A stretch of DNA of 62,483 bases, the filler included, from Collodictyon triciliatum (Eukaryota), in the NCBI GenBank assembly GCA_043381765.1. It is 7 parts of 7 records of this genome, joined end to end, with 100 filler letters (N's around TTAATTAATTAA, not from the genome) between each part and the next. Parts side by side here need not be neighbours in the genome. Positions count along the whole stretch, not along the records: positions 43,349 to 53,832 come from JBHJMP010003382.1; 6 more parts are not named here. One strand, 5' to 3'. Below, in pieces: positions 8,578 through 47,900 of the stretch (positions are counted from its first letter, which is position 1; each line of letters starts with the position of its first letter). Both the position numbers and the translations under genes were made by a program. Below the pieces are notes generated by a model, which saw only the letters and a program-made list of their open reading frames with translations, had not been told where the DNA came from and ran no database searches.

Positions 8578-8677
8578 NNNNNNNNNNNNNNNNNNNNNNN
8601 NNNNNNNNNNNNNNNNNNNNNTTAATTAATTAANNNNNNNNNNNNNNNNNNNNNNNNNNNNNNNNNNNNNNNNNNNN
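8578..8677. other. Artificial contig spacer 44N-TTAATTAATTAA-44N; also at 17262-17361, 25928-26027, 34592-34691, 43249-43348, 53833-53932
   Basis: Identical 100-nt structure six times; the palindromic linker has TAA in all six frames. Confidence 0.98.
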
Positions 8678-8776: not shown

Positions 8777-8832
8777 CCAAATAAGAAACACTTTTAGATA
8801 TTAAAAAGCAACATCGAGAGGAACCCAGCCCA

Positions 8833-11384
8833 ATGACTTCGGAAGAGATTGATCAAAAAGAGCGCCTCCTTCAAGAGCTGGAAGCCATGCAGCTTTGGCG
8901 GAAGCCGAGCACAACTTCGATCGAAAAAACCGTCCGACTGAGCGCCTCTGGTCGACTCGCCGGCTCGTTTCCCAGAGGCATTCTTTACTTGCCGTGGTTG
9001 GTTCTCCTCGACTTGTCCAAAAACACACTCTCCGCACTTCCTGCGGAGTTTTCCCGGTTGTCGGCTCTCGCAAGCCTGGACATAGGGTCTAACCAATTCT
9101 CGGTGATACCTTCCTCGGTATCTACCTTTGTAAAGATGACGTGCTTGAGTATGCAACACAATCAGTTGGCTTTCCTTTCGGCTGGACTATCTAAACTGTG
9201 CCAACTACAAGCAATAAACGCCTCGTCGAATCAATTACAATCACTACCCACAGAAATATTCCTTCTGACCTGTCTCAACCATATGAATGTTGCATGCAAC
9301 TCTATTACGCATATGCCCGATGAAATAATGAGGCTTTTTTCTCTGAAGGTCTTTGTTGTCTCAAACAATAAACTTACTTCTCTACCGTCCAGAATATCTG
9401 CACTGACTCGGTTGGAACAACTTGAGCTTTCAAACAATCTCTTACAATCTTTACCCGATGGGATTCAAGATCTTAAATATCTTCGAGAATTAATGGTAGA
9501 AAATAACAGGCTATCATATCTACCACCTGGAATATCTGCACTGACTCGGTTGGAAAGCCTAAGTCTTTCAAATAATCAATTATCTTTATTACCCGACACT
9601 ATTCAAGAACTCAAATCTCTCCGAGAGTTATTGATAGAAAATAACTGCCTATCATGTCTACCACCTGGATTATCTGGATTAATTTCCTTGAAAAAAATCG
9701 GCCTTATGAATAATCGATTATCTTTATTGCCCGATGCGATTCAAAGTCTCAAATTTCTCAATGAGTTGGTGCTCGATGGAAACCACATAATCTCTATCCC
9801 TCCTGTAATATCCAATATGGTTGCTCTGTCTCGGATATCCGCATGCTCAAACAACATATCTTCAATCCCGAATGAAATATTTATGATGCGAGGATTGAGA
9901 GTTGTTCAACTATGTAAAAATCATTTACATTCCTTTCCGCGCTTGAATTCAAAGTGTGGGTACTTGCATCTCGATCTATCTGAAAACAGGTTTACATCCA
10001 TATATTCAAATATACCCCCGACGTTGAAATTATCAGAGTTTGATATATTCAATATGATTAATCGATTCAGAATTGCTAAAATGAAGAATTTAGCGTGTGG
10101 GCTTCATTGTCTAACCTTAATGAAAAACAGGTTGAACTCATTCCCTGCAGAAATCTCAAATCTTACGTCCTTGACAAGCATCGTTCTGAGTTACAATAAA
10201 TTCACTACCTTTCCTAACGAACTGACGCCCATGACGAAATTGTCTAGCATCGACATCTCTCATAACCACCTTACTGGTTTGGTGCTGCTAATCACTAAAC
10301 TTTCTGCACTGAGTCATTTTGTCATCAACGACAACATGGTATAAGTTTAATATGATGAAAAAAAAATACTTCCGTCAGTTTTTTTTTATTTTTGGTTCTG
10401 CTGACTAAATTTGAATTACAGCTTGAAGAGATACCTCCATATATCTCTGCCCTTAAAAGTCTGAGATACTTTTATTTCGAAAACAAAGAGAAGGAACTAT
10501 GCCCTCGAATTCCTTTAAGTATATCAAGTCTACCGTGTTGGACGACTTACACTACGAGAAACTCTGAGACTAGCCTTGGTTCATCATTTTTGAAAAAAAT
10601 TACATATTACGAAGCTGTAAGCGTAAATACGAAAATAAGAAATAATATGTCAATTTGTGCATAATACCATGACATTAATTTAATAATTGAAATATAGTTA
10701 CAATCATTTTAAAGTAATAAAGACTTAATTTTCTTGTCTTTTTTTCTTCCTTTTTTCCAGGATACTTATCCTTACGATGTCACCTTTTATATAGGAAGAA
10801 GATGTAATGGACAGAGAATGGGTCCCAACTCAACACCAGTGTCTCACTTGGACATCATTAAATTTTAAGGGCAAAAGCATATCCAAAATCCCGACAAAAA
10901 TCATGTTACTTGTGAACCTTCAATCTCTAGATTTCAGCAAAAATCCAGTGTGATATTATTTCATTGTCTCGCTATTTGGTATATCATGTCCAACCTTTCG
11001 TCGTTCATCACACTAATTTTGTCAAAAGTCCTAGTAAGAGATTTTATCCTAAAAAAAATTTAATTATTTATAATAACAAGATATCATGCTTACCCGAAGG
11101 TTTGTCAGTTTTGGTCGACTTGAGGACTCTGATAATTAACCAGACACAAGTAATCTTATAGAAATATTTTACAATGTTGCACGCATCAAAATATATTCTA
11201 AATTCTAATTTTTCTTTTTTTAAAACAAACAAATCAACAAACAAACAAACAGATCAGAGCCCTCCCTCAATGGATTTTCAATATGACTTTGATAGAGTCT
11301 CTGGACATATCTGAAACCCCAATACATCATTTGGAAAAAATTGATTTATCACCAGCTATAATAGCAAACGTTGAAAGTTTATAG
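8833..11384 (+). CDS. Leucine-rich repeat protein (LRR1), 5 exons
   Basis: Large first exon with about 20 23-aa LxxLxLxxNxLxxLP repeats. Further exons at 10422-10616, about 10794-10947, 11081-11149 and 11253-11384 continue the LRRs to TAG. Confidence 0.88.
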
Positions 11385-12397: not shown

Positions 12398-13030
12398 GCA
12401 AACGCGTAGCAAAAGCTGGCAAAGTCTCCCAACAATGCACACTTTGCAGCAACGGTGATGAATCCATAGAGCACACATTTGTGCAATGTCCCTTCGCTCA
12501 AAACCTGCGCAAAACAGCCGGTGAGATTGTTCGACTGACACTCAAGACGGCTGCGTTATTGGCCCAATCCAGGCGATATTTGGAACTCTGCAACAGCTGC
12601 GTCCAGATGCAAAAACATTCTGGGCAGTGACGCGAGGCCATTTGCTATGGACTATGTGGATAGCGCGCATATACTCACGCAAAGCTTCAACACTCAACAA
12701 CCAGCCACACATTCCTGATAACAGACTGGGTGGCATCATACAAATCTCTTTCCTCAATAGCTTTCTTCGCCACCTGCACGTTCTCTACTACTCAGACCCT
12801 GTGAGAAGAGACATATGGAAAGAAGCTGATAAAGAGATTAAACCTCGCCGTGTCTCTCTCATGCAAGCACAAGACCCAGGCTACAGGCCAAATCGCAGGA
12901 TGCTATTCCTGATTACCGACTTCTTCTCCGCCACCCGGCCACCAAGTAGCGTCCATGCAAACAATGGCTAGCGAACCAAAGCAAATAACCCCACCATCCT
13001 GCACAAAATTGAAAGGAAGAATAAAAAAAA
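12398..13030 (+). mobile_element. 5'-truncated L1/Tx1-like LINE, family B (ORF2 C-terminus, 3' end, A-tail)
   Basis: zf-RVT motif CTLCSNGDESIEHTFVQCP, then TRGHLLWTMWIARI...FLRHLHVLYYSDPVRRDIW, homologous to 45362-45800. Frameshifted. 3' end near-identical to 43349-43554 and to the reverse complement of 33140-33310. Confidence 0.88.
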
Positions 13031-17261: not shown

Positions 17262-17361
17262 NNNNNNNNNNNNNNNNNNNNNNNNNNNNNNNNNNNNNNN
17301 NNNNNTTAATTAATTAANNNNNNNNNNNNNNNNNNNNNNNNNNNNNNNNNNNNNNNNNNNN

Positions 17362-23328: not shown

Positions 23329-23696
23329 CCAATCAGCAAACTCTCGGTGCTGCACAACGTTTGGACTCTGCTGCAGCAGATTCGAATCCACTCGCTGCCG
23401 CATCCCTCGTTTTGACATGTGTCCGAGAACCCACCGCAGAAGCCTCATCGCTTGACAAACTTCCATTCTCTCCCCTCATTCCAAGTTTTGCCATACCGAT
23501 CAGAAAGAAAAAGGCATGCGTGAATATATTTTCTTCCATTCTTCCTGATACTCGTTTCGCTTCGGGCTTGTCTGTAAATAGATAACTGTCACAAATAAAA
23601 ATAAAAATAAACAACTTGCCTGTCACTGCAGCCGATCTCCTTCGACAACCTCTCTGACACAATCCCCTCCCCTTTCTTTTGCGCCTATCAAACAGA

Positions 23697-25656
23697 ATGA
23701 GCAAAGCGGCTTTGTCGCCGACTATGCCCGTCCATCAAAACACCCTGATTCTGCACACTTGCAAGTGCAGCTCACGCCAACGATCGCAAACAACGACTCC
23801 GACACTGGGCACGTTCATCCTGGCCAATCCACTTGCGGGCTCCGAGGAATGCGTGCTGCTTCGCTCAAGGCCAAAGAGGTCCGCACAGGCCGCACAAAAG
23901 TCCCCGCTAAGCGATCACTTTTGCTGCGCCGCACAAGGCTGCCTGCTTCTCAACAGCAAAGGCTTCACTCTCTTTCTCATCGATCAGGCCCACGATCATG
24001 CGCTGCTTCCGCTGCCGCTCTCTCCAATGGGCTCTCCTTACGCGCCTCTCGCCAATCCATCACCCCTGCTTCATCATCAGCATCAAATCCATTCCGTGTA
24101 TTCATCACCGATAGCATCGCCGAACGGCCCTTTGTCACCGTATTCATCTCCCTCTGTCCCGCCACGAACCTATCTCCCGCCATCACCGCCGATTCGTACG
24201 CATAAGAAAGAAACCTGCTCGCTTAGAGTGCTGAACCTGGATAATAATTCCATCTCGCAGCTTCCTGTCGGCTTGTCTCAGCTCTGCTCTCTAGAACGAA
24301 TTATTCTCAGCAACAATCGCATCTCAGACTTCCCTGAGGATTCCTTCAAGTATATGTCAAACTTGACGATGCTGTCTTTCAGAAAAAACTGCGTTACAAG
24401 TCTTCCATCGTCCATTAGCGGTGCTTTCAACCTAAAGCAGATGGCCGCTGATGGCAATTGTCTTTCGAGACTTCCTCGTGAGTTTGCCCTCTTGTCGTCT
24501 TTGCAAGTGCTGTCGATGAACTACAATCAATTACCTGAAATCCCAGAGCCGCTCTTTGCTCTGTCTTGTCTGCAGGAATTGAACCTTGGACACAATCAGA
24601 TAAATACCATCCCGGACCAGATCTCCATGCTCCGCACTCTTTGTATTCTAAATTTAAAGCATAATGCAATCCCGTGTATCAAAGTATCAATGGCTCATTT
24701 GGTTCGCCTCCAAAAACTCTTCCTGGGAAACAACATGATTACATCGCTCCCTGCAAACATGCTTTATTCAAAGTTGAATGCTTTATCTATCCTCTCTTTG
24801 CAAAACAACCTAATTTCCACCATCCCACCATCGCTTGCTGGGTTGAAAAACTTGAGAGACCTCAAACTTCATGAAAATCGCATTTCGTCAATACCACAGA
24901 CATTCAGTCGCTTGACGTCATTAAAGACAATCAGTTTTATGGTACGTGCGATTTTTATATTATTTTCCCTTTGTTTGATGGAAAGTGGATTTCGGTGCAT
25001 CAAAATTCACCTTACATTCCTTTCTTTTTCTAAAAAAAAATAGAAAAGACATGGCTTAAATACCATTTATTCACAAAATGCTTGGTTTCATAGAACAACC
25101 CTCTGAAACAACCCGATATCCAATTGGCTTGCTTCGGGAAGGACTCAATCATAAATTATGTATCAAGTAACTCGGGATGTGATTTCTACGATTACGGTTC
25201 TGGTACGTTACTCGATACCATGATTTTTTATTTTTATTTTTAGAAAAAAAGCATCAATCAGAAATGAAAGAAATCGTATGATATTCGATTTACTCATCAT
25301 TGTTCATGACCCATATTTGTCACTTATTACTTTTAATATAGGGTACAATGAATACAACCCGCCACCACATGATATGCAAATCAATTTTGACGAAATAAAA
25401 GATTTAAAGGTTCGTTTTGTTAGTCATAATTACTCATTTATGTCTCTAAATTTCCGCTCGCATAAAAAAAAATATCCTGGCGTGTATGTGTATCCGATTA
25501 AAACTATGCCATATGAAGGAATTTGCAGATGCCAGAACTGCAAAAATTCAGCTTGGTCTATGGAAGGATCTTAAGGTAGTCATCAAACTGTTCAATCACG
25601 GCTTAAACTTGGAAAAATTGACCGTGGAGTTTGCTCGCGAGTTTGAGATTCTGAAG
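23697..25656 (+). CDS. LRR + TKL-type kinase-domain protein, 3' part lost at contig end
   Basis: Pro/Ser-rich N-terminus, about 11 LRRs (24220-24941), cap exon NNPLKQP...GKDSIINYVS, then MQINFDEIKDLK|EFADARTAKIQLGLWKDLKVVIKLF...EFAREFEILK (kinase subdomains I-III). Confidence 0.8.
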
Positions 25657-25841: not shown

Positions 25842-26808
25842 GATGATTATACATTGGTGGGTGGCAGTTCCCCTTTTATCTTCTCACTTTATAAACAAAT
25901 AGCGATGTTTTCTGAGATACTGTTTACNNNNNNNNNNNNNNNNNNNNNNNNNNNNNNNNNNNNNNNNNNNNTTAATTAATTAANNNNNNNNNNNNNNNNN
26001 NNNNNNNNNNNNNNNNNNNNNNNNNNNATCGCACAAATGACATTACATTCATATGACTGCTACGAACGAGCGAGGAAACCATGAAGGCACAGCCCACGAA
26101 TCCCTCGAAGCCCAATCATTGCTCCAGCGTGACTTCCAGCTCTTTTTGTGGTCGCAAAAGCATGAGAAATTAAATTCCAGAAGAGTAAAAATTGTTCTTA
26201 ACATACTATACTATTATAGCAATACATATTTCACAGTTATTATAATATGATATAGTTTCGTTTCCATCGTCCTTTACAAACGTCCTCATTTCTGTGAAGC
26301 AAGCCCAGTTTTAAAAACAAGGCAACATATTTATTTTGAGATTGTTATGCATATTTCTTTTGATTCGAAGGCAGCTTGATTTATTTATTAGAATATAGAA
26401 TCACGCCGCGACTCAAACCCTCAACCCTTCTTTTTGTCAGGGGCTCGTGAAGTCACTTCATGACGTCACACAATAGAATCTTCTACAACGCCTTCCCACC
26501 ACTTTTTTTCCACATAAAGCCTGGGCCTATCCAACCAAGTATAAATGCAATAAGAGGCGCGGCTGCGATGACTCGCGCCTGCAATAAATTAGAACACAAA
26601 ATACAAAGCGAGACGAGGTATCCCGATTGCGGCCACAACCAACGAGAGCGCCAGACAGAACACAACTCAGAGGGGTGGTGTGGGGAGTCAAAACCTTCCT
26701 TCGTTTGGGACCGGCTCTAGTCGAACGGAGTCAGAACGCCGCGTTGCTATGAAGCAAAAAACACTCGCAGACTCACCATTCACCACAGATCAGCCAACCC
26801 CGGAAGCC

Positions 26809-30315: not shown

Positions 30316-30924
30316 ACAGCCTTGTGTGCCTCAGCGGCATTATAAACTACAGCCTCTTTGTGATATCCTCGGATTTGCATTTTTTTCTTTGTCCGCTTCG
30401 TTTCTGTTGTTTTTCTTTAGTATGAAAAGTTCCAAAAATGGATAGATTTTTATGGAAATTTAAATCATTTACAATTCTTGCAATCGCATTACGAGTATTT
30501 AGTCACTGAGAGATAAACATGAATAAAATTAATGCACTTGCAACAAATGCGGATGCTTCGTTCGAAATCTCTAATATCTTTTACGCCCTTGCCGGTGAGT
30601 CACCTCCAACCTCCACGTCAGCAGCGTTCCTCGAACACAGCCACGTGGCAGGTTGCAAGGCACAGCCGAACCAGCACACAGCATTATGAATGCACAGCGT
30701 GAGGAAAAGAGAAGAACAGTCCGAGCGCCAAACACAACAGATTCGCGAATCTTCTATTCACACTAAAACACCGACAGGTCTCTCTCTTTTTTTTCTTTTT
30801 TATGCAGAAGTATATATGAAACGCAAAAGCAGCACATTTCACGCCACCGACTGCTAAGGGAGAAAAAAAAATTAATTATAATTACAATAGTAATAACGAA
30901 AAGAAGCTGAAAGTACAGGATAAG

Positions 30925-32822
30925 ATGCTGACTCTGCAAAGGACGCCGCTCATGAGCTCCATCCAATTTCTCCGCCATCTCACGGCTGTGCGGCACAAGG
31001 ACTATCGCATGTGGAGTCTGCTGCCGGTCGAAATCCTTATCAGGGTCTTCTGCGCACTGGATTCCCTCGATTTGCTGCGATGCAGTCAGGTTTGCATTTC
31101 GTGGAGGCGCATTGCATCCGACGAGTCCATTTGGGCACAGATATTCCTGCAAGAACGTGTGCTGTGGTCCGTGGCCTCTGGATTACCCATCGACCGGTCT
31201 TGCGTGGAAACTCACACCCAGCAAAGTCACAGCCTGTCTCTCACAAGAGGCACAGTGGGTCAGAACATGGATGGTGGTCACGATACGACTGATTCGCACG
31301 TTGCGACCAGCATTCGTTTACACAGGGCAGAAACATCATTTCAAAGTCCGCTGAATCCCACCGAGAGAGTTGGTCGTCCATCACCACCAAATGTCATGAG
31401 GCATGAACATCGCGAAGGGGAAGGGCAAGACTCCGACACAGATTATGAAGGCCTCGTAAATCCGAATCGTTTGTTGAGGTGGGGACTGATGGCTGTGCAG
31501 TCAGCGCTTTGTGGAACTCAGGAGCGTGTCGAGATTTATCCTAGACGCATACGGTATTCTGGGCCATTATTTAGTGACCCATCATCATGGCGCTCATTCT
31601 GCATCCATAACCACGTTTCTTCCAGTCAATCTCAGTATCACATAACATTCATGCAGCCTTGGTGGGCTCAATTGCAGATGAGCAACATTTGTTTTGATTT
31701 GAGAAGAAACCAGCGCAGAGTCTTGGTCATTGGGGCTTCGGAATCAAAGAAGACTTTCCAACTGCTGTGGGATGAACACTCTCCGTTCCGTCTAAGAGGT
31801 CAGTATGGTTAATGTATCCCATGCAGTTTGTCTGTACATTCAATCCAAAAAAAAAGCCAGCTTAAAAAAACCTCGAATGTTTTTATGATTCTACCAAAGC
31901 AAAACTCACCCACCAACTTTTTTTTTGGGTCTCTGATAATCGCCTTTCTTGTTTTTTTTTATTTTTATTTCGGATGCTGAAGTTGTATCATTGCGAGCAC
32001 ATTATAAATCTCATTTTAATCGATAATTAATTAATGTTCTGCCCCACCTAATTAATTTTCCTTATTAGACCTTGGGCCTGGTCATGCTACCGGATTGGGT
32101 TCGGGATTGTGCTTCCGCGCTAATAACCTGGAGTTAATCATGCTGTCCTGCTATGCCACTCAAGTTTTAAAAAGGGTAAGTAATGGTCAAAATGTCATCC
32201 TATGAAGTATTTTACTTATGTTTTAATAAAATAAAAATCTACGCCCTGACCAGCTCATTTACGTTATTCTCCCCCCATTAGCAAGTTGCGTACTATCTCA
32301 CCATTTACTGATATTTACACAATTTTTGGTTTCACGTCAATTTTATGATGTTCTATGCAATAGAATACCGAAGCCTGGAATCAGCTTTGTGAAGGGGTCA
32401 ACGGACTTATTGTTCTCTTCGACGCGGTTTCGGACATACACACACAAGTCCAGCTCGAGCTTAACAACGCTTACGACTCTTTGCCAAAGGGAATTCCTGC
32501 GCTGCACATAGCTATCACAAATAACGACGGCTCCTGTGCTTGTGAGGTTAATTTTTAATATCTTACAGAATACGAGCAGCAACATATGCAGGTTGTAGCG
32601 TTAATCCAAAACGTACCACAGAGCTGATTTAATCATCGAAGATAATAATTCGATTCCTTATGACCCTCTTCATCCCTTCAGGTTGCCGACAAATATGAGC
32701 TCTATAGACTCGGTTTCTACTGGAGGCTTTACACTTACAACACAGACATGGCGACCAACTATCATCTCGAAAACGCCCTACATTGGTTCAGTGACTCGAT
32801 TGTAGACTTTGATGGATTCTAA
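30925..32822 (+). CDS. F-box protein, FBXO4-like (F-box plus C-terminal small-GTPase-like fold), 4 exons
   Basis: F-box LLPVEILIRVFCALDSLDLLRCSQVCISWRRIASDESIW. C-terminal RVLVIG...TGLGSGLCF...QLCEGVNGLIVLFD...LENALHWF resembles recalled FBXO4 motifs GIGSGV, KVCEVVDGFIYV and FLNGIEWI. Confidence 0.75.
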
Positions 32823-33139: not shown

Positions 33140-33865
33140 CACTCCATTGTTCTTCAATTTGCACAAGACGGTGGGGATGTTGGCTTTGGTTCGCTGGCTA
33201 TTGTTTACATGGACGCTACTTGGTGGCAGGGTGGCTGAGAAGTAGTCGCTAATCAGGAATTGCATCCTGCGCTTTGGCCTGTGGCCTGGGTCTTGTGCTT
33301 GGATTAGAGAGCGGTGATTTGGAAGGACTTGCGGGGTTCGTGCTTGTCTCCAGCTCGCGGTGAGCGGGTGTGTGGGTGATGCCTTGTGTTTCTCCCCACG
33401 GTTGATGTTTTGACTTTTTGTAGGGTGTCGGCGGCGATATTTCGTATCGAAGGAATTTGGAGTAGGCCATAGTCATCGAGAACTGCATAGACTGCCCAGA
33501 GTTAGACGAGCGTTCGTTCTTGAGGCGGAAAATGAATGGCGACGGGATGCCGTATGAGATTGGTCTGCGTGAGCGCCATTTTCCTTTGTTATTCAGGACG
33601 GCTGTGGTTGGCTGTGCATCTTGTGTGTGGAATGCGGTGGAGCCTGGCGTTGTGATGTATCAGCCGTCTTCTTTGAATGAGATTTCCCTGATGGTGGCTG
33701 CGTTGCCTTCGTGAACCTGTTCGATGATGCAGAAGCCTTTCTGGTTGTCCCAGCATATTTGTCCTGCTGCCAATGGCTCGTTCAATGGTATTGACGTTTC
33801 GCAGTGAGTATACAGAATCCGCCAACGCGAGAGCAAAGGCTCGGGTGTGTTTGGAGGTGGCCCAT
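33140..33865 (-). mobile_element. Degenerate, internally deleted LINE family B fragment
   Basis: The reverse complement matches the family-B 3' end (caagcacaagacccagg...aagtagcgtccatg...gcgaaccaaagc). Upstream it encodes MQFSMTMAYSKF...PTPYK and PTTAVLNNKGKW, homologous to 45900-46300. Confidence 0.85.
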
Positions 33866-34591: not shown

Positions 34592-34700
34592 NNNNNNNNN
34601 NNNNNNNNNNNNNNNNNNNNNNNNNNNNNNNNNNNTTAATTAATTAANNNNNNNNNNNNNNNNNNNNNNNNNNNNNNNNNNNNNNNNNNNNTAAAGGAAA

Positions 34701-43143: not shown

Positions 43144-43248
43144 CTCACTCACTCACTCACTCACCCACTCACTCACTCACTCACTCACTCACTCACTCAC
43201 TCACTCACTCACTCACTCACTCACTCACTCACTCACTCACTCACTCAC
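43144..43248. repeat. (ACTC)n microsatellite at contig end
   Basis: Direct reading. Confidence 0.97.
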
Positions 43249-43348
43249 NNNNNNNNNNNNNNNNNNNNNNNNNNNNNNNNNNNNNNNNNNNNTTAATTAA
43301 TTAANNNNNNNNNNNNNNNNNNNNNNNNNNNNNNNNNNNNNNNNNNNN

Positions 43349-43554
43349 TAAACCTCGCCTTGTATCTCTCATGCAAGCACAAGACCCAGGCTACAGGCCA
43401 AACCGCAGGATGCAATTCCTGAATACCGACTACTTCTCCGCCACCCGACAACCGAGTAGCGTCCATGCAAACTTTGGCTAGCGAACTAAAGCCAGCATCT
43501 CCACCATCCTGCACAAAAATGGAATGGAATAATAATAATAAAAAAAAAAAAAAA
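43349..43554 (+). mobile_element. LINE family B 3' end with (AAT)n/poly(A) tail
   Basis: Aligns by eye along its full length to 12839-13030. Confidence 0.9.
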
Positions 43555-45110
43555 GGTCGAAAATATTGTATTGACTGTATAGATTATTTTTTTTTGTATC
43601 AATGAAACCCCCTCTAATATCGTTGAAATTAACTCATGATTGGTTTTTCCAACTTGACTATTTTTAATTCATGCATCATTAAATATCATCTACGCCTTAT
43701 TAAAAGTAAAGGTAAAAATTAACTAGGATAGCAAAGAATCAGAATCTACCGTTTATTTGGAATCATAAAAATACATGTAGAGAAATTCCCAAATATGAGT
43801 CATACCTGAATCTGGTTGATTAAAGTATGATTTTGAGATTCAAGGAGTCAAGTTGAATGGACGACGGTCTTCAGCCTATTAGAATGGATAATTCATTATT
43901 TATGTTTCCAAAATTTTGAGTAGTACTGCAGTTGCTAATAAAAAAAAAATATAGGTATGTTTCTTCAGAGTCTGCAAAAATAATTTACAATATTCTTGCT
44001 GGTTCTGCTAATGCCTATGCTGAGCAAGTTATGCTGGTTTGCCGGCTGTTATATGTTATCTGTTGAATACTAGACATGCATAAGTCAAGGGTATTGGATT
44101 TGGAGTCGAATAGAATAAACGAATAGAAGGAATCTGATAGTAAAGGAGAGCAGGATAGTCGCGTGCACTTTCGCCACAAGGGGATTTGGCCTCCGATCAA
44201 ATTGAAGTCAGAGTCCTTGGCAATCGCACCTCTTAAAGGCTGTAACTATTCTCGACCCTATCGGTTGCATATTGATGAGCCACAAATCAAGATTCCATAC
44301 GCTGCTGGCCTGAACCCCTTAACCGACACGTGTCACTGCTTTCAACCAACATGCAACAACTACGGCGTCCTGTAAAAATTTTTAAAAGCCACTTCATTCA
44401 CTTGTATCGAATAAAGGAAAATATGTATAAATGAGGGATTTATTTTTTTCCACCAATAGGCGAATCCCATGAAAAAGGTCGAGTTGAGAAGAGAAAAGCA
44501 AACAGATCAAAAACCAACCTGAAAGCAAATCCAAGATCTAAGAGACGTTCTTAAAGCCTACGTTTGAAGTATCTCCATCGAAGTGACTTACTGTGGGCAG
44601 AGCAACCAGAGATTCAATCGCCCCTAAGCTCCTAGAAAGCATTACAAACTGCATGAGATTGGAACATAACTCACTTAAAATTCTTAGAAACCGCAAAATG
44701 ACAAATCAGCTAAAGCTTCAAAAATAAAAATAGTAGAATCAAGGATATTTCATATAGTGTGTATGCATGGCCAACGATGCTTTGCAACAGAAAGGCTCGG
44801 AAATCCGGAAGATGCCAGCTCTCCTTGGCTTTCGAATTGTTGTGATGATAAGGGCCCTAAAACCTTTGCAGGAAGGAGGAATAGTTGAATCTATTCTTAT
44901 TTGGATATGTAAATAAGTTTTCATGTGTTTTGAGTTTTGGTTGGTTGATGCGCAACATAAGCCAGGGATTATGCTGGGCAAGACTAGAGCCAATCTCATA
45001 AAGTTTTGTTGAAGGGACTCATCTTTGGCCCGTTCTTGTTTCTTTCATTTTATTTTTATTTGCCAGCTTTTGATAGACTACCCCATTCTCGATAAAGTCT
45101 TCTGACTTTC

Positions 45111-47900
45111 TTTTTTTTCCCTTCATTCGTTTCAGTAGTGGGGCAAGGACAGGTTACACAGAAATACATCAGTAAGCACTCAGGGAGGAAGCACGCGCAT
45201 AGGTTCGGAGAGGAGGCGATTATGGGTTGGGGTAAGGGGCGTGGCACTGCAAAGAAGTCATTGATAGCGGTCTGGATGGAGACAGGAATGTTACCAGCTT
45301 CGGGCAGCGAGCTTATGAGGCTTCGTATTTCATTTAGTATGACCTTTTGGTATTCTACCCATCATTCTCTTCGCGCTTTGTCTGAATAGCGAATAATTCT
45401 GATGTGTTTGAGTAGATTGCTCAGAAAGCTATACTCCGCAAGAAGCTCGGTTCTGTCTTGTGGAGTGGGTGAGTCGGGTGGATTGTTCGGGCGGCGAAGG
45501 GATATGCGAAGACTCCATGTGGTCCACAGCATATGCCCTCTCGTAATTGTCCAGAGCACTCTGTAATCATGTGACATTTGGGATTGTGGACCAAACAGGA
45601 TATTAACGTTTCCCATCGGGGCGGTTGAGTGAGGAATTCACATATAGCACGGTGTGCAAGGTTTGTGACCTTCTTCACTATCGGGCAGTTAATAAAAGTG
45701 TGCTCGATTGAGTCAATGTCGTTGTGACACAATGTGCATTCTTGGCTGATTTTTGCAGATTTAGCGGCTCGCCCACCAATCCATAACTCGCGATTGGCGA
45801 TGTTGAGCATCAGGGAGCGATGTTTTGGGAGGACTTGGGGTATTCTCGCTTGCCTCCAGCTGTGTGCTAAAGGAGGGTCGATGATGCCGATGGTTTCTGC
45901 CCACCTGTTCATTTTGCGTGCTTTGTATGGCGTTGGTGTCATAGTCTTGTGCTGAAAGAGCTTAGAGTATGCCATTCTCATAGAGAAATGAGATGACTCG
46001 GGGTTGTCTACTAGGTCTTGGTTCTTCAGCTGGAAGAAATGCGGCGATGGAAAGTCATCTAGTATTGAACGGTGTGAGCACCATTTTTCTTTGTTGTTCA
46101 ATACTGCTGTGGTTGGTTTCGCTATTGTCGATTGGAAGGGTGGTGCTTTCTTGATGAATTCAACGCTGCCATTCTTTAGTAGGTTGACTTGCCTCATGGT
46201 GAATGGCTTCGCGTGCTGCCTCTCAGTTATGACGCAAAATTCCCTGGAGGTCCAGCAGAGTTGTCCCACCAAAGCAGGCATATATAAAGATTCAGTCATC
46301 TCGGATTGTTCATGAAGGATTTTCCAGCGAGATAGTAGTGGTTTGGATGCGTCGGGAGGCGGGGCTGGGATTTCCCCTTCCAAGAATTTTTTCTTGAAGT
46401 CTTTGCATAATCGAGTGATGAGGTGCCACATCCCATCTTGCCAGAAGGCCTTGGGATGCACGAGCATATCTGACCACCATCGAAGAGTCATTGTTGTCCA
46501 CGCTGTTGTCGGGGTGATAAGTCCGAGACCTCCTTCCGCGGGTGGTTTGACCAACGTTCTCATATTATACTGTTGACGGGGTGTTGTGATGTAGTTCCTG
46601 CAGAGGTCATCGAATTCTTTCAGATGGACTTTGTTTATTTGGAGGTTGAGTGCCGTTTCTGCTAATTAGAATGAAGTTTTGGAATATTTGCTATATTTTT
46701 CCTGAGCCCTGGAACGTTGATATCCCATCTGCTTCCTGTGACTGGGTGCTGGCTGTTAGGAGTAGGGATTCTTCAACGCATATACCATGAAATCATCTCT
46801 GATTGTTGCATAATTACTGTTTCGTGCCTTGGTTGGGGCGTGTGGGTTTTCGAACTTTCCGTTGACCATTTGGGGTTAAGCTCTCCATTTCTAACATAAA
46901 AAGCATTTGCCAGTTGCTTTTTTTTCTTTGCTGTATTCTTTCCTTGCATGAGGGAATGGGATGCGTTTTTATCCCGTGCGTAGTCTTGTTCCGGTATATT
47001 CAACCTCTTCAAATGACGGTTTCCGGCGTTTGGGGCGACGTTGGATGAAGGGTTGGCTTGCGGGTTGCTTGCATATCTCTCCCAGCGTCTATTGCTGATA
47101 TTTGGTGACCCAGGATTCTTTGGGCTAGGGGTTGCGGCGCTCCACGGGAACTTTTTTGCGCGTAGATGGTGATGAAGTCAGATACTTTGTCTTCGACTTT
47201 CTCGTTGTATGTCACTAGAGCGTCATCCATGAAGTTACTGCCTGGGTGGGTGAAGTTGATTTCAATTGGAGGGGATTGTTGCTGGTAGGCGTTCATTATA
47301 GCTTTCCAAGTGGCGCCGAGCGGGATGTTTGTCGGTCGGGCTGCTTTGACCACGATCCAATTTGCGGTTGGGGTGTACTTGTAGTCAAACAGAGAGACGT
47401 CGCCTCCTTGGATGAAGGCGCTTGTGTTTCCTTTTTGCAGGAAGGCCAGTCTCAGGCCACTCGCTGTATCGGAAACCATTAGGGTGGTTCCTTTTAACGT
47501 TGCAGTTTCGCGTTCTCAGGACTTCGCTCAGTTCAGTGGCAAAGTTCACACGGTTTTCTCTGCTGAGCTCAGGCCAATACCCACCTTGGAGGCGGACTAT
47601 GCACTCGTCCGTGTAAAGGCCTTTCTTGGTCAAACTCTATTTTTTGAACGGGGCATTCGTTGCTTTCTTATGGATAGTATTTCGTTCTCTCGCGGCGCTC
47701 CCGTCTGTGATTGGAAATAAGCCAGTACCTTTGTCGTCCACAACGGATGAGGCAGTCGGTTGTGGTTCCTTTGGAAATGGATCAAACAATAGGACTATTG
47801 TGATTAAAGAAAACCTTATTATGTTAGAGGTAAGAGTGTTGAGTGGTGTTAAGGACTCACAGAGCTTGAGGAATCATAACTGCGCCAAAGATCTGATTAA
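45111..47900 (-). mobile_element. Internally deleted L1/Tx1-like LINE (family C): ORF1 remnant and ORF2 C-terminal half, no recognisable EN or RT core
   Basis: ORF2 motifs PPAEGGLGL and zf-RVT CTLCHNDIDSIEHTFINCP, LWTITRGHMLWTTW. Poly(A) tail at 45111-45118 after TGAAACGAATGAAGGG. Frameshifted ORF1-like frames at 47009-47700. The 5' boundary is approximate. Confidence 0.85.

What the first reader, a model, noticed from the sequence alone, without database searches (positions are those of the whole stretch)
45239..45274. Three divergent LINE families all end ORF2 with a PCNA-binding PIP box, close to a PIP degron in two
Seen: the ORF2 tails are otherwise hard to align but share one motif. Family C has QTAINDFFAVPR (45274-45239, minus, in frame past one premature TGA). 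Family A has QLAITDFF (53024-53001) and QFAITDFF (60619-60642). Family B has LFLITDFFSATR (12903), QFLISDYFSATL (33262) and QFLNTDYFSATR (43413), consensus QFLITDYFSATR. Known: the PIP box is Q-x-x-[ILM]-x-x-[FY]-[FY]; the CRL4-Cdt2 PIP degron adds TD at positions 5-6 and a basic residue at +4; human L1 ORF2p has a PIP box between EN and RT, not at the C-terminus. Inference: these elements may dock on PCNA through a C-terminal motif and could be degraded in S phase or at repair sites. I do not know of this being described for LINE ORF2 C-termini.
Basis: partly seen in the sequence, partly recalled or inferred. Interest (0 to 1): 0.82.

Follow-up and report, generated by a model that had tools for sequence, protein, structure and literature searches.

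The report
C-terminal PCNA-docking motif on LINE ORF2
Several related L1-like jumping genes of an unnamed freshwater eukaryote end their reverse-transcriptase protein with a textbook motif for gripping the DNA sliding clamp PCNA, a likely second, independent way for this kind of element to recruit the clamp that human LINE-1 also needs.

Summary
All six motifs sit at the stated coordinates. The window copies are decayed 3' fragments of related L1-like families. Their tails are homologous and align, so the motif is shared by descent, not convergence.

Database relatives carry Q-x-x-I-T-D-[FY]-F in one frame with the zf-RVT zinc knuckle, 7-14 residues before the stop. Of 21 tails covering the place, 13 fit the strict PIP pattern. 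The other 8 are one change, one deletion or a frameshift away.

Among four family representatives the motif is a conservation island: 4 of 8 columns invariant, against 0 of 35 flanking tail columns. Synonymous codon differences point to protein-level constraint.

An AlphaFold2 model puts the motif in a low-confidence tail just after a fold matching human ORF2p residues 805-1267 (Z 13.6). Distant full-length relatives have no PIP box anywhere.

Best reading is a selected C-terminal PCNA-docking box. Binding is untested. The degron idea is weak, because the +4 basic residue is present in families B and C but absent in A and D. I found no prior description.

The parts
45251..45274 (-). Family C PIP-like box QTAINDFF. 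With AVPR it runs to 45239, giving R at +4. Position 5 is N here but T in all 7 readable database relatives of C.
   Evidence: relatives
45056..45637 (-). Family C tail reading frame: two CTD helices, linker, motif. It is interrupted by TGA at 45361-45359 and runs on past the place where relatives' ORFs end (...SPN[LPS]).
45631..46665 (-). Family C ORF2 3' fragment (wrist/CTD with the zf-RVT zinc knuckle). It is 5'-truncated, aligns to about residues 811-1139 of the full-length relative P0008, and has a frameshift to the tail frame at about 45631.
   Evidence: Pfam PF13966 E 1.6e-07; tblastn
45107..45120 (-). A-rich run (GGAAAAAAAAGAAAG on the element strand), the likely 3' end of the C copy. 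This is inferred.
   Evidence: read directly
53001..53024 (-). Family A PIP box QLAITDFF. The A tail fragment is 52980-53294, and the stop after ...SPR is lost in this copy.
60619..60642 (+). Family A PIP box QFAITDFF in a very short 3' fragment, with stop TAG at 60664-60666, 7 residues after FF.
12903..12926 (+). Family B box LFLITDFF. L1 and F7 are private to this copy; other copies read Q and Y. SATR follows, and the stop TAG is at 12969-12971.
   Evidence: read laying
12400..12971 (+). Family B ORF2 3' fragment: zinc knuckle, helices, linker, motif. A 1-base frameshift lies near 12554-12556, where other copies carry one more base.
   Evidence: table 4
33239..33262 (-). Family B box QFLISDYF (S at position 5, L at +4). 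This copy has an internal deletion that joins ...KHRSL directly to IQAQDPG..., removing the zinc knuckle and the helices.
43413..43436 (+). Family B box QFLNTDYF (N at position 4), followed by SATR. The stop TAG is at 43479-43481 and an A-run starts at about 43538. The copy is cut on its 5' side by a contig join at 43348.

Best explanation
The motif is a genuine, selected short linear motif. It is a canonical PIP box of the high-affinity 'TD' type, Q-x-x-I-T-D-[FY]-F. It sits in a flexible tail 7-14 residues before the C-terminus of ORF2p in one sub-lineage of L1-like (APE + RT + zinc-knuckle) retrotransposons, families A, B, C and D.

Inferred mechanism: the exposed tail plugs into the hydrophobic pocket and Q-pocket of a PCNA protomer loaded on DNA. 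That would tether the ORF2p-RNA complex to PCNA at the nicked target or at a replication or repair intermediate during target-primed reverse transcription. This is the role PCNA is reported to play for human LINE-1.

The motif was gained once in the ancestor of these families and then kept while the surrounding tail diverged.

Shown here: presence, reading frame, position, conservation pattern and predicted disorder.
Inferred: PCNA binding and its role in retrotransposition.
For: 1. Pattern. 13 of 21 tails that cover the place (6 in the window, 15 from databases) fit Q..[ILM]..[FY][FY], and 15 of 21 have TD at positions 5-6. The 8 misses are:
- 4 single substitutions at a defined position;
- 1 one-residue deletion (P0020);
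- 2 frameshifted copies (P0018, P0027);
- P0009, which reads Q-Y-F-N-T-P-F-F.

2. Frame. P0001, P0023, P0024, P0026 and P0003 (C) and P0015 (D) hold zf-RVT, tail and motif in one ORF. P0007 and P0029 overlap to show the same for A.

3. Conservation island. Among natural representatives of C, A, D and B, invariant columns number 18 of 62 in the two helices, 0 of 28 in the linker, 4 of 8 in the motif and 0 of 7 after it. Placing all 4 invariant columns of the 43-column distal tail inside the 8 motif columns has hypergeometric p of about 6e-4 (my arithmetic; descriptive only). Q1 is also the majority in B. The x positions 2-3 vary, as the PIP definition allows.

4. Protein-level constraint. B differs from A and C by synonymous changes at I (ATT/ATC), T (ACC/ACT) and F8 (TTC/TTT), and from C at Q (CAA/CAG). 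It also has F/Y at position 7, which the motif permits.

5. Accessibility. In the AlphaFold2 model of P0023, helices 275-300 and 302-324 have block pLDDT 86-91. Residues 329-353 are below 50, with a short helix at 336-342.

6. Context. The model matches human LINE-1 ORF2p (9k6g_A: Z 13.6, rmsd 3.6 A, 190 aligned, model 102-337 to ORF2p 805-1267; next unrelated entry Z 5.8). The motif therefore starts where the ORF2p fold ends.

7. Precedent.
- Human ORF2p binds PCNA, and the interaction is needed for retrotransposition (passages of PMC10830420; PMC5371812).
- The PCNA site works when supplied on either ORF2p fragment (passages of PMC4889948).
- The pogo transposase PIP box is conserved in Tigger and Lemi1 (PMC5371812).
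Against: - No binding test of any kind exists; the complex job was not folded.
- All copies probably come from one organism or close relatives, and the families share ancestry. The effective number of independent lineages is therefore about 4-5.
- Family E (P0009) has N at position 4 and P at position 6.
- A B-like variant in two runs reads I-L-S-T-D-Y-F, with S at position 4 (loose ends). Neither can be told apart from decay.
- A and C share identical codons over six motif residues. Some nucleotide-level cause, or a recent exchange of 3' ends, cannot be excluded for that pair. Elsewhere in the tail about half of the identical residues also share codons.
- Variation among B copies in the laid runs is no clearer in the flanks than in the motif, and 38 rows of that table were not shown.
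- For human ORF2p a 2025 paper argues that PCNA binds a non-canonical wrist site rather than the PIP box (passages of PMC7617806). The precedent itself is therefore under revision.
Confidence: 0.6

Rival explanations
1. PIP degron. In families B and C the box plus R at +4 makes ORF2p a CRL4-Cdt2 substrate. ORF2p would then be ubiquitylated and destroyed once docked on chromatin-bound PCNA in S phase or at repair sites. This would either be self-limitation by the element or restriction by the host.
For: - TD at positions 5-6 in 15 of 21 tails.
- K/R at +4 in 7 of 8 readable C tails and 3 of 4 B tails.
- The degron definition is a PIP box with TD plus a basic residue at +4, and such degrons lie in disordered regions (passages of PMC8871960).
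- The tail is predicted disordered.
Against: - +4 is A, T or P in 0 of 5 A tails with K/R, and P in family D, which also has TN. The degron features are therefore not what is conserved across families.
- The basic +3 residue that matters in human cells is absent everywhere.
- TD alone also raises PCNA affinity, so it does not need a degron to be explained.
- Presence of Cdt2 in the host could not be checked.
Confidence: 0.13
2. The conserved C-terminal peptide has a different partner or role. Candidates are an intramolecular contact with the RT/CTD, ORF1p or RNA binding, or another host protein that reads PIP-like motifs. On this reading the likeness to a PIP box is only formal.
For: - The bare PIP pattern is common: 14 in the six-frame translation of this window against 6.1 in shuffles.
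- The human ORF2p 'PIP box' turned out to be a helix packed against palm and fingers (passages of PMC10830420). PCNA has been proposed to bind elsewhere on that protein (PMC7617806).
Against: - The conserved positions are exactly the defined PIP positions plus TD, while positions 2-3 vary freely.
- The peptide is in a low-confidence tail, not packed in the model.
- Its position near the C-terminus in a disordered region is typical of PIP boxes. That typicality is from established knowledge, recalled.
Confidence: 0.2
3. The constraint is at nucleotide level, or there is no constraint. Either the 3' end of the RNA is what is conserved (for example as an RT recognition element), or the match is inherited chance in dead copies.
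For: - A and C share 28 of 36 nucleotides across motif and +4, with no synonymous change in six codons.
- All window copies are decayed.
Against: - B keeps the amino acids with 3-4 synonymous changes.
- The linker just upstream has 0 of 28 invariant columns.
- Each of the window's damaged motifs differs from its family majority at a different position. That is what decay from a functional ancestor looks like.
Confidence: 0.07

Closest known systems
Human LINE-1 ORF2p-PCNA interaction: PIP box at residues 404-419 of the tower/NTE, and the proposed PUB site in the wrist
   Same: - Both are L1-type ORF2p. The C-terminal fold matches at Z 13.6.
- Both show a motif of the form Q-x-x-[ILM]-x-x-[FY]-[FY].
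- PCNA is a positive factor for retrotransposition (passages of PMC10830420, PMC5371812, PMC5478143).
   Different: - Here the box is in the last 15-22 residues, in a predicted flexible tail. It is not a helix between EN and RT packed on palm and fingers.
- It is of the TD type.
- The nearest full-length relatives (P0008, P0010, P0014/P0031) have no PIP box at either place, so it looks like a separate gain.
- Whether families A-D also have an internal box or a PUB-like wrist site could not be seen, because only 3' fragments are held.
pogo / Tigger / Lemi1 transposase PIP box
   Same: - A protein encoded by a mobile element carries a canonical PIP box that binds PCNA (passages of PMC5371812).
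- The pogo box contributed to the high-affinity PL peptide (passages of PMC4615156 and PMC4103810).
- From memory only: the pogo box is also C-terminal and of the I-T-D-Y-F type.
   Different: pogo is a DDE DNA transposase, not a reverse transcriptase, so there is no homology and this is an analogy only. The function of the pogo box is itself described as unclear.
PIP degrons of CRL4-Cdt2 substrates (Cdt1, p21, Set8)
   Same: PIP box with TD and a basic residue at +4, lying in a disordered region (passages of PMC8871960). Families B and C fit this pattern.
   Different: There is no basic +3. Families A and D lack +4 K/R. No evidence of turnover exists, and the host's Cdt2 was not examined.

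Membership tests
Canonical PIP box (PCNA-interacting short linear motif) | Sequence pattern Q-x-x-[ILM]-x-x-[FY]-[FY] | tested here: met
   13 of 21 tails fit, and the majority form fits in each of families A, B, C and D. Family E (P0009) does not fit.
Canonical PIP box (PCNA-interacting short linear motif) | Lies in an accessible, usually disordered segment | tested here: met
   In the AlphaFold2 model of P0023, residues 329-353 have pLDDT below 50 and follow helices at 86-91. This is a prediction only.
Canonical PIP box (PCNA-interacting short linear motif) | Physical binding to PCNA that is lost on mutating the aromatic pair | not testable with these tools
PIP degron (CRL4-Cdt2 substrate) | TD at box positions 5-6 | tested here: met
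   15 of 21 tails. It is the majority in A, B and C. D has TN.
PIP degron (CRL4-Cdt2 substrate) | Basic residue at +4 (and at +3 in human cells) | tested here: inconclusive
   +4 K/R: C 7 of 8, B 3 of 4, A 0 of 5, D 0 of 1. No family has a basic +3.
PIP degron (CRL4-Cdt2 substrate) | Host encodes Cdt2/DDB1/CUL4, and the protein is degraded in a PCNA-dependent way | not testable with these tools
   No genome is held for the window.
L1-superfamily ORF2p | C-terminal zinc knuckle (zf-RVT) and an ORF2p wrist/CTD fold | tested here: met
   PF13966 E 1.6e-07 on the window ORF and 4e-08 on P0023. Human ORF2p chains match at Z 13.6, 13.1, 12.9 and 9.2, against 5.8 or less for unrelated entries.
L1-superfamily ORF2p | APE endonuclease and RT upstream in the same ORF | tested here: inconclusive
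   Seen only in the distant full-length relatives P0008, P0010 and P0014 (Exo_endo_phos + RVT_1 + zf-RVT). Every A-D sequence held is a 3' fragment.
Human-type internal ORF2p PIP box | [quoted passage not shown] | tested here: not met
   The box here is C-terminal. The full-length relatives have no strict or loose match anywhere. The N-terminal parts of A-D were not seen.

The most novel reading that the evidence does not exclude
ORF2p of families B and C carries a working PIP degron, so the enzyme is destroyed by CRL4-Cdt2 the moment it docks on DNA-loaded PCNA. That would be a built-in single-use timer, or a host trap, coupling retrotransposition to S phase. Sister families A and D escaped it by losing the +4 basic residue while keeping PCNA docking.
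Probability: 0.12. Interest if true: 0.8.

Novelty: new variant of a known kind. Interest (0 to 1): 0.55.

Why it matters
PCNA is one of very few positive host factors reported to bind L1 ORF2p directly (PMC5478143). How it binds human ORF2p is now disputed: a buried PIP helix, or a non-canonical wrist site.

A second L1-like lineage that evolved an unambiguous, exposed, separable C-terminal PIP box would be independent evolutionary evidence that clamp docking is a general need of L1-type target-primed reverse transcription. It would also offer a cleaner system for mutational tests. The variable +4 residue gives a natural contrast for testing whether clamp-coupled degradation acts on a retrotransposon enzyme.

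Tried and rejected
- Own genome: none is held, so PCNA, Cdt2, DDB1 and CUL4 could not be sought.
- Complex prediction: the P0023 tail (alignment A2, residues 318-353) was sent with an archaeal PCNA reference as stand-in. 
- Motif-free profile A1 against metagenome contigs: no stretch was conserved enough to search with. Alignment A3 then gave 1 confirmed locus out of 163 pattern matches (L001).
- Same query A3 against prokaryote genome contigs: 0 relatives out of 55 pattern matches.
- phmmer of two tail peptides against PDB chains at E up to 10: 0 hits each.
- ESM Atlas: P0023 gave only generic zf-RVT clusters. The window's F-box ORF gave F-box clusters, commonest in Chordata. The host is not identified.
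- Earlier findings of this scan: nothing by place, sequence or words.
- Run listing: most rows hold only small shares of the C stretch, and only X1-X4 were laid. I draw no conclusion on habitat or expression from the rest.
- Variation among B copies in the laid contigs: it does not separate motif from flanks, because the copies are dead and 38 rows were not shown. It was dropped as a selection test.
- dN/dS between active lineages: not possible, since DNA of the database proteins is not available.
- Taylor et al. 2013 (Cell): not held.
- Supplements of all papers are closed. Alignments of ORF2p across LINE clades in them may bear on the novelty claim.
Full report
WHAT THE WINDOW IS

The 62,483-base window is eukaryotic DNA. 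It is made of pieces of about 8.6 kb joined by N44-TTAATTAATTAA-N44 linkers, plus one 670-N gap. No whole genome is held for it. It carries LRR and F-box ORFs and several 3' fragments of LINE-like elements.

CHECK OF THE OBSERVATION

- C: QTAINDFFAVPR, 45274-45239 (-).
- A: QLAITDFF, 53024-53001 (-); QFAITDFF, 60619-60642 (+).
- B: LFLITDFFSATR from 12903 (+); QFLISDYFSATL from 33262 (-); QFLNTDYFSATR from 43413 (+).

A wider scan for the core [ILMV][TSN][DN][FY][FY], together with tblastn using relatives' tails, finds no further LINE tail in the window.

The bare PIP pattern is not rare. The window's six frames hold 14, against 6.1 +/- 2.8 in 30 shuffles. One match alone would mean nothing.

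WHAT THE COPIES ARE

The ORF at 45421-46665 (-) has a zf-RVT zinc knuckle (PF13966, E 1.6e-07). It aligns to residues 811-1139 of P0008. P0008 is a 1226-residue protein with Exo_endo_phos, RVT_1 and zf-RVT domains, and P0010 and P0014 have the same architecture.

The window's C copy is therefore a 5'-truncated 3' fragment of an L1-superfamily ORF2. It has a frameshift near 45631, a TGA at 45361-45359 and N for T in the motif. It also reads through the place where its relatives' ORFs end.

The tails of A, B and C are homologous, not 'hard to align'. They align over 100-130 residues at 32-40% identity and share the block [YI]SFL..L..H..[IV]L.YSD..R..W. The motifs fall in the same columns. The three families are thus sub-lineages of one clade, and the shared motif is by descent.

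RELATIVES FROM ELSEWHERE

Three searches were made with queries that did not contain the motif:
- the 91-residue tail ORF;
- the 414-residue ORF, against 1.84 billion representatives, which gave 15 hits in all;
- a motif-free profile.

Cluster members were then listed. Together these gave 15 tails that cover the motif place:
- C: P0001, P0023, P0024 and P0026 read QTVITDFF AV[PS]R. P0002 reads QTAITDFF AVIR and P0003 QTAITDFF AVLH. P0025 reads QTVITDLF. P0018 is frameshifted.
- A: P0019 and P0028 read QLAITDFF; P0029 reads QLAVTDFF.
- B: P0020 reads QFLITDF-SATR, with one residue missing.
- D, a fourth family closest to B: P0015 reads QSVITNFF SIIPNPG and then ends. P0027 is frameshifted.
- E, a fifth family: P0009 reads Q-Y-F-N-T-P-F-F at the homologous place.
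(Sequences.)

With the six window copies, 13 of 21 tails fit the strict pattern and 15 of 21 have TD.

Frame. In C and D the zinc knuckle, the tail and the motif lie in one ORF. For A, P0007 and P0029 overlap to show the same, and locus L001 shows the stop directly after ...PVLASPR. For B, contigs of four public runs carry one more base at 12554-12556. By my reading of the tblastn frames, that extra base would bring the window copy's two B frames into register. The same contigs read Q at 12904 and Y at 12922 in about 91-100% of the depth, which confirms the consensus QFLITDYFSATR.

The stop lies 10 (C), 7 (A), 14 (B) and 7 (D) residues after the aromatic pair.

The distant full-length relatives P0008, P0010 and P0014/P0031, and also P0012, have no strict or loose PIP match anywhere.

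IS IT CONSERVED BEYOND ITS SURROUNDINGS?

I took one natural copy per family: P0023 (C), P0028 (A), P0015 (D) and the window's B copy. Invariant columns number 18 of 62 in the helical block, 0 of 28 in the linker, 4 of 8 in the motif (I, T, F, F) and 0 of 7 after it.

Q and D are each kept in 3 of 4 representatives. The B copy's L at position 1 is private to that copy. Positions 2 and 3, which the PIP definition leaves free, differ between families.

At codon level, B keeps the residues with synonymous changes at I, T and F8 against A/C, and at Q against C. It also has an F/Y swap that the motif allows. A and C share codons across the motif. Elsewhere in the tail about half of their identical residues share codons too, so this is only a mild oddity.

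The six window copies each deviate from their family majority at a different position. That is what decay after insertion should look like.

STRUCTURE

An AlphaFold2 model of P0023 was built on a 22-row alignment (mean pLDDT 64). It shows two confident helices at 275-300 and 302-324, with block means of 86-91. A tail at 329-353 has pLDDT below 50 and carries a short helix at 336-342 over the motif.

Foldseek ranks human LINE-1 ORF2p chains first (E 0.019-0.06). VIA-align gives 9k6g_A Z 13.6, rmsd 3.6 A, 190 residues aligned, model 102-337 against ORF2p 805-1267. Unrelated entries score Z 5.8 or less.

The motif (337-344) therefore begins where the ORF2p fold ends, as a short flexible C-terminal extension.

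MECHANISM

The best-supported reading is a selected PCNA-docking box. The conserved positions are exactly those that define a PIP box, plus the TD pair of high-affinity boxes. The peptide is terminal and predicted to be flexible.

PCNA is already a known positive partner of human ORF2p (passages of PMC10830420; PMC5371812; PMC5478143). In the human protein the PCNA site works when placed on either fragment (passages of PMC4889948), so its position is not critical.

A 2025 study proposes that human PCNA binds a non-canonical site in the wrist, not the buried PIP helix (passages of PMC7617806). That makes an exposed canonical box in another L1-like lineage more interesting. It also makes the human precedent less simple.

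Binding itself was not tested, because the only complex job was not folded.

DEGRON

By the definition read in PMC8871960, B and C fit: TD plus K/R at +4, in 3 of 4 and 7 of 8 copies. A (0 of 5) and D (0 of 1, with TN) do not, and no family has the basic +3. The degron features are therefore not what selection has kept across the clade. I give this reading about 0.13.

NOVELTY

Five full-text searches returned only work on the human internal box, the pogo/Tigger/Lemi1 transposases and bacterial clamp-binding transposases. None describes a C-terminal PIP box on a LINE ORF2p. Supplements and Repbase/Dfam could not be searched, so the claim 'not in print' is limited to these searches.

I rate it a new variant of a known kind. 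Clamp docking by L1-type ORF2p is known. What looks new is a separately gained, canonical, C-terminal TD-type box.

VERDICT

Interest 0.55.

Noticed in passing
window 8578-8677, 17262-17361, 25928-26027, 34592-34691, 43249-43348, 53833-53932; also 51904-52573: The window is a chain of separate pieces of about 8.6 kb, joined by N44-TTAATTAATTAA-N44 six-frame stop linkers, plus one 670-N gap. Neighbouring pieces are therefore not necessarily neighbours in the genome.
   Followed up: partly
window 33230-33851 (-): This B-family copy joins ...SWRQARTPQVLPNHRSL directly to IQAQDPG.... It lacks the zinc knuckle and the two tail helices but keeps the PIP tail. The breakpoints share the residues SL[MI], which suggests a microhomology deletion or a template switch.
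   Followed up: partly
window 12913-12942 (loose ends of contigs in runs X1 and X4, table 7): A B-like variant reads I-L-S-T-D-Y-F-S-[TA], with S at box position 4, and has a different, apparently shorter end. It may be a diverged subfamily or decayed copies.
   Followed up: no
window 8785-10344 (+) and 23658-25043 (+): Two long uninterrupted leucine-rich-repeat ORFs of 519 and 461 aa (LRR_8 E 1.9e-41 and 1.1e-31). An F-box-like ORF lies at 30820-31812 (+).
   Followed up: no
window about 43150-43248 (+): A (CACT)n-type microsatellite, read as THSLTHSL..., runs into the contig join just upstream of the truncated B tail.
   Followed up: no
P0009 (database protein, family E): A fifth related family has Q-Y-F-N-T-P-F-F at the homologous place. 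Q, T and FF are kept, while I4 and D6 are lost. This is either a decayed copy or a lineage that gave up the box.
   Followed up: no
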